Source: Pecten maximus
Lineage: Eukaryota
Direction: 5' to 3'
Length of the DNA: 64,000 nt
Assembly (NCBI RefSeq): GCF_902652985.1
Contig: NC_047020.1
Coordinates: 30,008,001 to 30,072,000, forward strand
Position numbers and translations under genes: made by a program
The notes under the pieces: generated by a model
What the model was told of the DNA's origin: nothing
Database searches by the model: none
The model's input: only the letters and a program-made list of their open reading frames with translations
Shown here: positions 23,913 to 26,900 of the stretch, piece after piece
How the letters are laid out: each line of letters starts with the position of its first letter
How positions within the stretch are numbered: position 1 is the stretch's first letter

Positions 23913-26900
23913 GTAAGCTATTTTTTATTATTTTATATTGTTTGTCCATGGGATAAAAAAAAGCTTGTATGTATTCAATTCTTATCGGAGTTTTTATCGG
24001 TTCATTTGAGATAAATTATAGAAGATAGCCCCTATATATATATATATATATATATACTTGTACCACGTTCGTTTGCGCTTTCAGTCGGATTAATTCCGAC
24101 TATATTTCATCCGCTATACATTCAGTTTATATACACATTGTATGTATTAAAATCGCTGTAAATGCAGTATGAATGACACACACTGTGTATTATATCATAT
24201 TATGACTACAGAGATCAGTGTAGTCTGTTTACATTTAAACGACTATTTGCAGTATACAGTATTTTTTTTTTTTTTTTACTTTTTTTTTTGTGTAATTTGA
24301 TGAAATCGATTTTAAAAAAATAACAATTTTCCGTGTATGCATGTTTATCAAAAGGGCTACATGTACTTGATCTTAAGCTATCATACCTGCTGCATGTATC
24401 TGAGATAACTAAGAAAACATGACCGTACCTTCGGTGATTAACAATTACCATGCGTTCTAGCTAGGGGTTTTTAAGACACATTTATATCATACATTCGGAT
24501 TGGTGCAATGTATGTTATCGTTACTCAGGGGAGGGTTTGGTATTTTATGTTATCATTACTCAGGGGAGGGTTTGGTATTTTATTTTATCATTACTCAGGG
24601 GAGGGTTTGGTATTTTATGTTATCATTACTCTGGGGAGGGTTTGGTATTTTATGTTATCATTACTCAGGGGAGGGTTTGGTATTTTATGTTATCATTACT
24701 CAGGGGAGGGTTTGGTATTTTATGTTATCATTACTCAGGGGAGGGTTTGGTATTTTATGTTATCATTACTCTGGGGAGGGTTTGGTATTTTATGTTATCA
24801 TTACTCAGGGGAGGGTTTGGTATTTTATGTTATCATTACTCAGGGGAGGGTTTGGTATTTTATGTTATCATTACTCAGGGGAGGGTTTGGTATTTTGTGT
24901 TAGCATTACTCAGGGGAGGGTTTGGTATTTTGTGTTATCATTACTCAGGGGAGGGTTTGGTATTTTGTGTTATCATTACTCAGGGGAGGGTTTGGTATTT
25001 TATGTTATCATTACTCAGGGGAGGGTTTGGTATTTTATGCTGAGACTCTTGCCATGTGATTTCATCTTTCATCCTCAGTTTATCACGTTCATTCCATTTT
25101 ATATTTGTTTGCCATAGTTTAGATATCGTATATATATATATATATATATATACAATTTAATGTTTTTATGGATGTGTAGGTGACGGGGTCAAACAAGGGT
25201 ATTGGTCTACAAATCGTCAAGGGCCTGTGTCAGAGATTTAATGGAGACGTGTACCTAACAGGTAAGATAAGTCAGGGGCCTGTGTCAGAGATTTAATGGA
25301 GACGTGTACCTAACAGGTAAGATAAGTCAGGGGCCTGTGTCAGAGATTTAATGGAGACGTGTACCTAACAGGTAAGATAAGTCAGGGGCCTGTGTCGGAG
25401 ATTTAATGGCGATGTGTACCTAACAGGTAAGATAAGTCAGGCGCCTGTGTCAGAGATTTAATGGCGATGTGTACCTAACAGGTAAGATAAGCCAGAGGCC
25501 TGTGTCAGAGATTTAATGGTGACGTGAGCCTAACAGGTAAGATAAGTCAGGGGCCTGGTCAGAGATTTAATGGCGATGTGTACCTAACAGGTAAGATAAG
25601 CCAGGGGCCTGTGTCAGATATTTAATGGCGATGTGTACCTAACAGGTAAGATAAGTCAGGGGCCTGTGTCAGAGATTTAATGGCGATGTGTACCTAACAG
25701 GTAAGATAAGTCAGGGGCCTGGTCAGAGATTTAATGGCGATGTGTACCTAACAGGTAAGATAAGCCAGGGGCCTGTGTCAGAGATTTAATGGCGATGTGT
25801 ACCTAACAGGTAAGATAAGTCAGGGGCCTGTGTCAGAGATTTAATGGCGATGTGTACCTAACAGGTAAGATAAGTCAGGGGCCTGTGTCAGAGATTTAAT
25901 GGTGACGTCTACCTAACAGGTAAGATAAGTCAGGGGCCTGTGTCAGAGATTTAATGGTGAATTGTATATTACAGAATAATTAATTCAAGGACCTGTGTCA
26001 GAGATTTAAAGGCGACATGTACCTTACAAGTAAAATGTCATGTGTATCTAACAGGTAAAACAAGTAAGGGCCTGTGTAAGAGGTTTATCGGTGACGTGTA
26101 TCCTACATGTAAAATAAGCAAAGGACCTGTCAGAGACAATAAGATGTATGGTAAGTCTCGGGCAGATATCATAGATTTAAAGGCGACCCATATCTTACAG
26201 GTAAGACAAGTCAATTGTCTGTGTCAGAGGTAATATACAAATGTACACCGTAAATCGAGGATTTGTATTGGACATTTAACGGCGATATGTACCTTAACAG
26301 GTGAAATAAGTCAGGGGCCTGTGTTAGAAACTTAATGGCGATGTGTATTTAACAGGAAAAATACTTCAGGGGTTTTTAATGGTGACATATACCTTAAAGA
26401 AAACCAGGGTCCGTGTCAGATGTAATAGAAACGTACTTGTACCTGTAGGAAAATGAAAGGGCCATTCATGTAAGTTACAGGTAGGCAAAGGGTCGATGTT
26501 AGAGATTTAACGTGCTTTCCGTTATCGGGTTCGAACCAGTTGTACCAAATAGGTACGGTACAATGTACAGTACAATATAATGAAACGCAATTGAATCTCA
26601 AGTGAATTCCCATGATGGCAGTCGTCTCTACAAACTTAACGCTTCAAACATAAAAACCGATTATTTTTCTTTTTACCATGTAATGGATGTAAAACTAATA
26701 CCTGAATATTTCCATCAAACTGGTATATTAGCACGTATGTTTGAATACAATTCCATAGCAAATGAAGATTTCTCGTCCTGTTTTTAACAAAACGTATTTT
26801 AGTATGACGAATGAAGCATAGCAGTTCCGCCATTTTGGATCCAAATGGTACGTTTCAGGAAACGAACCACGTGAACCGGGTTGGTTCTGCCGGTACACCG

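What the first reader, a model, noticed from the sequence alone, without database searches (positions are those of the whole stretch)
25221..25960. Exon end plus 5' splice site of CBR exon 2 amplified into a 55-bp tandem array
Seen: the unit is the last 41 coding nt of exon 2 plus 14 intron nt, so ~13 identical CAG|GTAAGA donors lie in series with the same local exonic context. Reading past the first donor hits TAA after 11 codons (..TCA GAG ATT TAA), so only the most upstream donor gives protein. Each unit is also an AG|GT junction preceded by CTAAC. Inference: strong competition among identical donors, with possible NMD-coupled dosage control, recursive splicing or U1 decoy function. It is also a live example of the tandem-duplication substrate proposed for intron gain.
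Basis: partly seen in the sequence, partly recalled or inferred. Interest (0 to 1): 0.72.

Follow-up and report, generated by a model that had tools for sequence, protein, structure and literature searches.

The report
Scallop minisatellite repeating a splice donor
A short tandem repeat copies the end of one exon and its splice signal 13 times inside an intact scallop carbonyl reductase gene; the assembled messages use the first copy, so the extra copies are likely silent passengers of a kind already described in humans and amphioxus, and such repeats appear to sit at a few percent of this genome's splice sites.

Summary
Thirteen exact CAG|GTAAGA donors lie 54-55 nt apart after exon 2 of an intact 8-exon, 277-aa CBR1-like gene. 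Every downstream donor gives a stop at codon 48. The array is not an assembly artefact: it is in short-read contigs of three other samples. In the two RNA runs that could be checked on both sides, one contig joins exon 2 at the first donor to exon 3. The structure is a known kind: human F7, CBS, IFI6, LMNB2 and PDGF donor-reiterating minisatellites (PMC1557585) and amphioxus 'mirages', for which the intron-gain idea is already in print (PMC3087553). It is also common here. The same gene has a second one, a paralog has an independent one, and 7 of 207 donors and 7 of 219 acceptors of kinase and P450 exons are reiterated (strict test about 2% against 0.9% background). Best reading: a near-neutral locus-specific minisatellite, first donor chosen, leaks removed by NMD. 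Dosage control, recursive splicing and U1 decoy roles have no support. What stays interesting is the genome-wide frequency, and strong donors 55 nt apart as a test of upstream-first selection.

The parts
23886..23912 (+). CBR1-like gene, coding part of exon 1 (ATG at 23886)
   Evidence: joined to exon 2 in RNA contigs of X4 and X18
24511..25039 (.). 35-bp minisatellite, 15.1 copies, inside intron 1; touches no splice site
25180..25261 (+). exon 2 (82 nt); its last 41-46 nt are the exonic part of unit 1
25216..25928 (+). 13 full units (55 nt; units 7 and 10 are 54 nt), each with CAG|GTAAGA; authentic donor GT at 25262, twelve copies downstream
   Evidence: unit contigs in short-read runs X4, X6, X7
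25293..25295 (+). TAA reached by any transcript that passes donor 1 (codon 48)
   Evidence: and the sequence
25929..26453 (+). partial 14th unit and older degenerate copies, three with donor-like CAG|GT (26055, 26201, 26301)
27140..27318 (+). exon 3 (179 nt)
   Evidence: best PDB match human CBR1, E 3.5e-20
27319..29063 (+). second array, 56-bp unit, about 30 copies, beginning at the exon 3 donor and repeating it as (T/A)AA|GTAAGT; almost wholly intronic unit
29223..29335 (+). exon 4
   Evidence: joined to exon 3 in 4 of 4 runs
29637..29765 (+). exon 5
32954..33095 (+). exon 6, with catalytic YxxxK (YGVSK, Tyr194)
33593..33656 (+). exon 7
33919..34016 (+). exon 8 to the stop codon; spliced model (277 aa) is identical to database protein P0004

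Best explanation
This is a locus-specific minisatellite whose first unit spans the exon 2/intron 2 boundary of an intact carbonyl reductase gene, the assembled mRNA is spliced at the first donor, and the twelve downstream donors are likely near-neutral pseudo-sites. Origin (inferred): a 55-nt tandem duplication across the donor, then expansion by slippage or unequal exchange, as happens at the edge of about 1% of intronic positions in this repeat-rich genome. It was tolerated because the upstream copy keeps the exon and its donor whole. Selection of the site (inferred): the spliceosome pairs the exon 2 acceptor with the first donor it meets, giving the shortest exon (82 nt; donors 2-5 would give 137, 192, 247, 302 nt). 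The same 'innermost site' outcome must hold for the reiterated acceptors found elsewhere in the genome if those genes work. Any leak to a later donor carries a stop at codon 48 with five or more junctions downstream and would be removed by NMD (inferred). Copy number beyond the first few units would then matter little.
For: Shown: same contig joins exon 1, exon 2 ending at 25261 and exon 3 in X4 (319 nt; record 58-140 on exon 2, 139-319 on exon 3) and X18 (1235 nt; 168-250 and 249-429). X10 and X12 join an exon-2-type tail to exon 3 but were laid on the exon 3 side only. In X18 (on record as RNA) 1 contig was laid on exon 2 and none entered the array. Gene intact and identical to P0004. All 15 DNA matches in the genome lie at this locus. 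0 of 5 intron-bearing paralogs have an array at this donor; 1 of 30 paralog donors and 0 of 35 acceptors are reiterated, an unrelated 80-bp unit at exon 4. Reiterated sites are common: 7 of 207 donors, 7 of 219 acceptors; strict 4 of 191, 4 of 206 against 75 of 8065 and 68 of 8109 intronic positions, 0 of 371 exon middles. Precedent: F7 uses only the most upstream of 5-9 identical donors; LMNB2 and PDGF likewise (PMC1557585); amphioxus mirages do not disturb splicing (PMC3087553). Weak: in X4 the array contigs have about 105-143 depth per reference copy, like the unique intron contig (119) and far under the exon contig (1953) (the tool warns against reading depth as expression).
Against: Only assembled contigs were available; they drop rare forms, and NMD would hide downstream use, so the share of splicing at donor 1 was not measured. 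In HeLa, two strong donors 45 nt or more apart are spliced about 100% at the intron-proximal (downstream) site (PMC3413131); these donors match the U1 consensus at 8 of 9 and are 55 nt apart, whereas F7's are weaker and 37 nt apart. CBS and IFI6 do use the next two copies (PMC1557585). No donor column varies among 13 units (p 0.09). Splice sites are at array edges about twice as often as intronic positions (pooled p 0.027, events not independent), and donor-like motifs are in 58 of 238 array units against 35.7 +/- 5.5 shuffled, so pure chance placement may not be the whole story. In X4 a contig reading from exon 3 into the second array has depth 510 against 1117 for the spliced join, a weak hint of leak or slow splicing at that array.
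Confidence: 0.72

Rival explanations
1. Leaky but unselected: downstream donors (mainly 2-4) take a substantial share of splicing, NMD destroys these messages, and the gene simply pays the cost; array length changes expression as a side effect.
For: Intron-proximal rule for strong sites 45 nt or more apart (PMC3413131); CBS and IFI6 use extra copies (PMC1557585); stop at codon 48 in every extended form; read-through contig at the second array in X4.
Against: No extended exon 2 contig in X4 or X18; array contig depth in X4 matches the intron baseline. Steady-state data cannot see degraded RNA, so this is weak.
Confidence: 0.17
2. Selected regulatory device: unproductive splicing coupled to NMD, tuned by copy number or stress, sets the dose of a detoxifying enzyme.
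For: Two donor arrays in one gene and one in a paralog; invariant donors; about two-fold excess of splice sites at array edges.
Against: Absent from 5 of 5 paralogs at this donor; equally frequent at acceptors and in unrelated kinase genes; without the index case 2 of 36 CBR donors examined are reiterated, not clearly above 2-3%; donor conservation not significant.
Confidence: 0.05
3. Recursive splicing: the AG|GT of a unit serves as acceptor and regenerates a donor, removing intron 2 in steps.
For: Every unit is AG|GT; pyrimidines at -20..-5 (7-9 of 16) overlap the weakest true acceptors of the gene (7-13 of 16). It would give the same mRNA, so the contigs cannot exclude it.
Against: CTAAC puts the branch A at -4, against a typical 19-37 nt (PMC10078293); 4-5 G in the tract; motif is coding sequence that differs in paralogs; intron only 1878 nt, while known recursive sites lie in very long introns (recalled).
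Confidence: 0.04
4. Assembly artefact.
For: The reference predicts a graph break at 25250 if units 2-3 carry the exon's GGA codon, but contigs of X6 and X4 run through it, so those two units may be haplotype-specific or mis-polished.
Against: Units differ from each other, and contigs of the lengths predicted for units 6 and 7/10 (92-93, 59 nt) occur in X4 and X6, for unit 13 (64 nt) in X4; X7 has further unit contigs.
Confidence: 0.02

Closest known systems
Human F7 IVS7 37-bp VNTR and the related CBS (IVS13), IFI6/6-16, LMNB2 and PDGF minisatellites (PMC1557585; seen: abstract, passages of the introduction and results, whole discussion)
   Same: First unit spans the exon-intron boundary; authentic donor followed by identical pseudo-sites; the most upstream site gives the normal mRNA.
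   Different: Scallop, not mammal; unit is mostly exon (41-46 of 55 nt; F7 has 4 of 37); donors stronger (8 of 9 U1 match) and 55 nt apart, above the 45-nt threshold of the intron-proximal rule; pseudo-site function untested here.
Amphioxus 'mirages' in Adh3 and globin genes BflGb6, BflGb9 (PMC3087553; seen: passages of section 16 and abstract; the original Adh3 paper PMC117041 was not held)
   Same: Minisatellite-like duplication of exon-intron boundaries, at both 5' and 3' boundaries, several per gene family, splice signals kept, regular splicing preserved, proposed as intron-gain substrate.
   Different: Different phylum; here a first rough frequency estimate (about 2-3% of splice sites); allelic and somatic length instability not measured.
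Intron gain by tandem genomic duplication (PMC3443670; seen: passages)
   Same: Tandem copies containing AGGT.
   Different: That model duplicates a purely exonic AGGT segment and creates a new intron; here an existing donor is copied into an existing intron and no intron is gained.
ABCA7 intron 18 VNTR (PMC5954066; seen: search listing only)
   Same: VNTR at an exon-intron junction linked to splicing, as its title states.
   Different: An effect on splicing was shown there; none is shown here.

Membership tests
Splice-boundary minisatellite (mirage / F7-type VNTR) | Tandem array whose edge unit spans a real exon-intron boundary | tested here: met
   boundary confirmed by RNA contigs
Splice-boundary minisatellite (mirage / F7-type VNTR) | Copies keep the splice signal | tested here: met
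   13 of 13 full units have CAG|GTAAGA
Splice-boundary minisatellite (mirage / F7-type VNTR) | Regular splicing at the authentic (most upstream) donor is preserved | tested here: met
   main contig in 2 of 2 runs laid on both sides
Splice-boundary minisatellite (mirage / F7-type VNTR) | Downstream copies silent or nearly so | tested here: inconclusive
   no extended contig seen, but contigs drop rare forms and NMD would hide them
Splice-boundary minisatellite (mirage / F7-type VNTR) | Copy number varies among alleles | tested here: inconclusive
   X7 has a unit variant not in the reference, X4 and X6 lack the expected break for units 2-3; copies cannot be counted from contigs
Splice-boundary minisatellite (mirage / F7-type VNTR) | Pseudo-sites work when the upstream site is mutated | not testable with these tools
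   needs minigenes
Recursive splice site | AG|GT with a usable branch point and pyrimidine tract upstream | tested here: not met
   branch-like A at -4; 7-9 of 16 pyrimidines with 4-5 G
Recursive splice site | Splicing intermediates at the site | not testable with these tools
   no raw or nascent reads served
Intron gain by tandem genomic duplication | Exonic AGGT segment duplicated, new intron position created | tested here: not met
   unit spans an existing donor; exons 2-8 have matching boundaries in five paralogs
Regulated unproductive splicing (AS-NMD) | Alternative form carries a premature stop well upstream of later junctions | tested here: met
   stop at codon 48 of 277, five more junctions downstream
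Regulated unproductive splicing (AS-NMD) | Alternative form is made, regulated and conserved | tested here: inconclusive
   not seen in contigs; absent in 5 of 5 paralogs; orthologous genomes not available
CBR1-like short-chain dehydrogenase (host gene) | TGxxxGxG, YxxxK, adh_short domain, intact frame | tested here: met
   TGSNKGIG, YGVSK, PF00106 E 1.9e-31, identical to P0004

The most novel reading that the evidence does not exclude
In this scallop genome thousands of splice sites (about 2-3% of donors and of acceptors) are tandemly reiterated, and strong copies more than 45 nt apart take a copy-number-dependent share of splicing that NMD removes, so that minisatellite length acts as a genome-wide, heritable dial on gene dosage. 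The CBR exon 2 array would be one clean case. The frequency part has direct support; the dosage part is untested.
Probability: 0.12. Interest if true: 0.7.

Novelty: new member of a known kind. Interest (0 to 1): 0.3.

Why it matters
The single array is ordinary. What may matter is how many there are. Published cases are a handful of human and amphioxus genes, and two mammalian results disagree: upstream-first scanning in F7 (PMC1557585) against about 100% intron-proximal use for strong sites 45 nt or more apart (PMC3413131). A genome with likely thousands of reiterated donors and acceptors, of varied spacing (28-80 nt among the donor arrays seen here) and strength, is a ready panel for testing which rule holds in vivo, using existing annotation plus raw RNA reads. 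It also bears on annotation and read mapping (exon ends map to many places), and unit loss between the exon and a 54-nt unit could create null alleles (inferred). Three searches and a broader one found no report of such repeats in molluscs and no genome-wide count; the library lacks most subscription papers.

Tried and rejected
1. 'Donors are reiterated but acceptors are not.' Suggested by the random loci (4 of 4 Pfam exons upstream of arrays had the donor in the unit, 0 of 3 downstream had the acceptor). Refuted by the gene-centred test: 7 of 219 acceptors against 7 of 207 donors. 2. 'New units are copied from the exon end', because units 2-3 share the exon's GGA codon while all other units and the tail have GGC or GGT and three RNA runs have GGC in the exon-type tail. 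Left open: contigs of X4 and X6 do not show the break these two units should cause. The common GAC/GAT and GGC/GGT variants are also explained by CpG decay. 3. Selection to keep the donors: p 0.09. 4. RNA structure masking later donors: donor 1 is the most open (0.067) but all are low (0.002-0.048); inconclusive. 5. A first exon test by motif was no better than control (8 of 54 against 369 of 3021), so exons were confirmed by homology instead. 6. The loose background (3.8% and 2.6%) counts inner positions of degenerate arrays; one search is the stricter version, and both are reported. 7. No raw RNA reads were served, so donor use could not be counted. Parts without contig cover (intron 2 at 27008-27095 in X4; 5' part of exon 2 in X7) prove nothing. 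8. Earlier findings were not open. 9. Papers PMC117041 and PMC306954 were not held; they are known only through citing papers. 10. One search had an off-by-one frame and the paralog part failed; redone. 11. Twenty further gene loci could not be fetched, so the gene-centred sample is smaller than planned. 12. The Atlas search of exon 3 added nothing beyond the SDR family.

Full report
Observation. The window holds an intact 8-exon gene at 23886-34016 that translates to 277 aa. The spliced model is identical to database protein P0004, which its source names carbonyl reductase [NADPH] 1-like of Pecten maximus, on a contig of the same length as C6. It has TGxxxGxG and YxxxK and matches PF00106. 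TRF finds a 55-bp array at 25216-26033. It has 13 full units, each with CAG|GTAAGA; the first is the end of exon 2 and its real donor at 25262. Older degenerate copies follow to about 26450. Passing donor 1 reads 11 codons and hits TAA at codon 48, whichever later donor is used.

Is it real? Yes. A search of the genome with exon 2 gave 15 matches, all at this locus, so the unit is local. Short-read contigs of three samples other than the best DNA holder contain units: X4, X6 and X7. A simulated graph of the reference predicts unique pieces of 93, 59 and 64 nt for units 6, 7/10 and 13; X4 has 92, 59 and 64, X6 has 93 and 59. One detail does not fit: the reference predicts a break at 25250 caused by units 2-3, and X4 and X6 run through it, so these two units may differ by haplotype or be mis-polished.

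Which donor is used? Only assembled contigs were served. Four runs were laid on the exon 3 side and four on the exon 2 side; X4 and X18 were in both. In each of these two, one contig of the same length and depth carries exon 1, exon 2 up to 25261 and exon 3 with nothing between: donor 1. X10 and X12 join an exon-2-type tail to exon 3, 30 letters shown, which cannot name the donor. X10, X12 and X18 have GGC GAC in that tail, equal to no full unit of the reference; in X18 it is the exon allele (one other letter in exon 2). No contig with an extended exon 2 appeared. In X4 the array contigs have roughly 105-143 depth per reference copy, like the unique intron contig (119), against 1953 for the exon contig (my division depths multiplicities; weak, since contig depth is a poor measure). 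So the stable message uses donor 1. The share lost before steady state is unknown.

Surroundings. The same gene has a second array of about 30 copies of 56 bp that starts at the exon 3 donor and repeats it, and a 35-bp array in intron 1 that touches no splice site. The genome has five intron-bearing paralogs and one hit in a long open frame. None has an array at the exon 2 donor; 1 of 30 paralog donors examined has an unrelated 80-bp, 4-copy array at exon 4, and 0 of 35 acceptors do.

How common is this? (a) In 106 evenly spaced 10-kb stretches (1.06 Mb) there are 238 arrays covering 189 kb. Donor-like motifs (7 of 9 or better) are in 58 units against 35.7 +/- 5.5 for shuffles (maximum 50 of 200) and 35.8 +/- 5.8 for genomic windows; acceptor-like motifs are not enriched (41 against 33.5). 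Neighbouring arrays are not independent. Of 756 flanking open frames, 750 were scanned. Seven matched host-gene families, one a gag, four were noise in one locus. The four exons upstream of an array (PARG, BAG6, IRF, CD36) all have their donor inside the unit; the three downstream (Ig, 5'-nucleotidase, a weak radical SAM hit) do not have their acceptor in it. Of 19 further candidate array ends read by eye, two more are supported by homology (NCKIPSD; NMDA receptor 1-like, weak) and two by open frame only. Six in 1.06 Mb scales to about 5,200 in 918 Mb (Poisson range about 1,900-11,300; hand arithmetic). (b) Gene-centred: 317 kinase and P450 exon hits from local profiles. After dropping five loci with broken or intronless pieces, hits with E over 0.01 and sides without a clear splice site, 207 donors and 219 acceptors were tested; 7 and 7 are reiterated (one donor was found through its upstream copy), against a loose background of 3.8% and 2.6%. 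With a strict test (three or more copies, none on the other side) the rates are 4 of 191 and 4 of 206, against 75 of 8065 and 68 of 8109 intronic positions, 13 of 1566 near-exon positions and 0 of 371 exon middles; pooled p 0.027, each side about 0.10. So such arrays sit at about 2-3% of splice sites, between chance and about twice chance, at both boundaries alike. My early idea of a donor-only class was wrong.

Mechanism. Shown: anatomy, stop codon, donor 1 in the main message, local origin, frequency. Inferred: a duplication across the donor was harmless because the upstream copy keeps exon and donor whole; it then expanded like any minisatellite here. The first donor is chosen, giving the shortest exon, and leaks would go to NMD. 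Against this stands the HeLa result that strong sites 45 nt or more apart splice at the downstream site (PMC3413131, passages); these donors are strong and 55 nt apart, so a hidden leak is the main rival (0.17). Recursive splicing is unlikely: the CTAAC puts the branch A at -4 against a typical 19-37 nt (PMC10078293, passages), it is coding sequence that paralogs spell differently, and the intron is 1878 nt; tract composition alone does not exclude it. A U1 decoy role has no evidence either way.

Known kinds. PMC1557585 (abstract, passages and discussion) describes the F7 37-bp VNTR, where only the most upstream of 5-9 identical donors is used, and lists IFI6 and CBS (two extra copies used) and LMNB2 and PDGF (authentic site only). 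PMC3087553 (passages) names the class 'mirages' in amphioxus, at both boundaries, without harm to splicing, and proposes the intron-gain model. The classical duplication model needs a purely exonic segment (PMC3443670, passages), which is not the case here. The finding meets the testable defining features of the mirage/F7 class. Searches found no mollusc case and no genome-wide count. No supplements were read; the U1 consensus and the long-intron habit of recursive sites are recalled.

Verdict. Real, correctly described, a new member of a known kind, and one of likely thousands in this genome. Interest 0.3, carried by the frequency and by its use as a test of splice-site choice rather than by this locus.

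Noticed in passing
window 27319-29063: Second donor-repeating array in the same gene (56 bp, about 30 copies). In run X4 a contig reading from exon 3 into it has depth 510 against 1117 for the spliced join and 119 for intron 2; none listed in X10, X12, X18. Weak hint of retention or use of the donor at 27376; read-through stops at the sixth codon.
   Followed up: partly
G000:C6:33130898-33131229 (minus strand; in L022): CBR paralog with an independent 80-bp, 4-copy array repeating the end of exon 4 and its donor.
   Followed up: yes
L044:6782-8339, L046:3270-5072 and 799-1100, L094:6889-7294, L097:2935-3332, L074:3837-5908, L068:4699-8863, L131:3505-3670: Donor-repeating arrays after exons of PARG, BAG6 (two), IRF, CD36, NCKIPSD, NMDA receptor 1-like and an Ig-domain gene; up to 104 copies. 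The second BAG6 and the Ig case rest on open frame only.
   Followed up: partly
L167, L218, L228 (two), L240, L246, L253: Acceptor-repeating arrays before kinase exons, where the last copy must be used; L218 has arrays at both ends of one exon, L247 at two donors.
   Followed up: partly
window 25243-25248 and matching positions in units: Exon has GGA GAC in the reference and X4, GGC GAC in X18 (and in the tails of X10, X12); reference units 2-3 share GGA, all later units have GGC or GGT. Possible exon-array exchange, or a polishing artefact.
   Followed up: partly
window 4726-6822 and 9706-11505 (minus strand): Two long open frames (699 and 600 aa); the first holds a 309-bp coding repeat of 4.4 copies, the second a 42-bp repeat. 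No Pfam match over cut-off except a weak FAD_binding_8 score in the first.
   Followed up: partly
window 43899-45257 (minus strand): Reverse transcriptase frame (RVT_1, E 1.2e-35), probably a LINE.
   Followed up: no
L032-L137: Minisatellites of period 15-250 cover 189 kb of 1.06 Mb sampled (18%).
   Followed up: no
G000:C10:26747040 (L007): CBR-like match inside a 333-aa open frame, apparently intronless.
   Followed up: no
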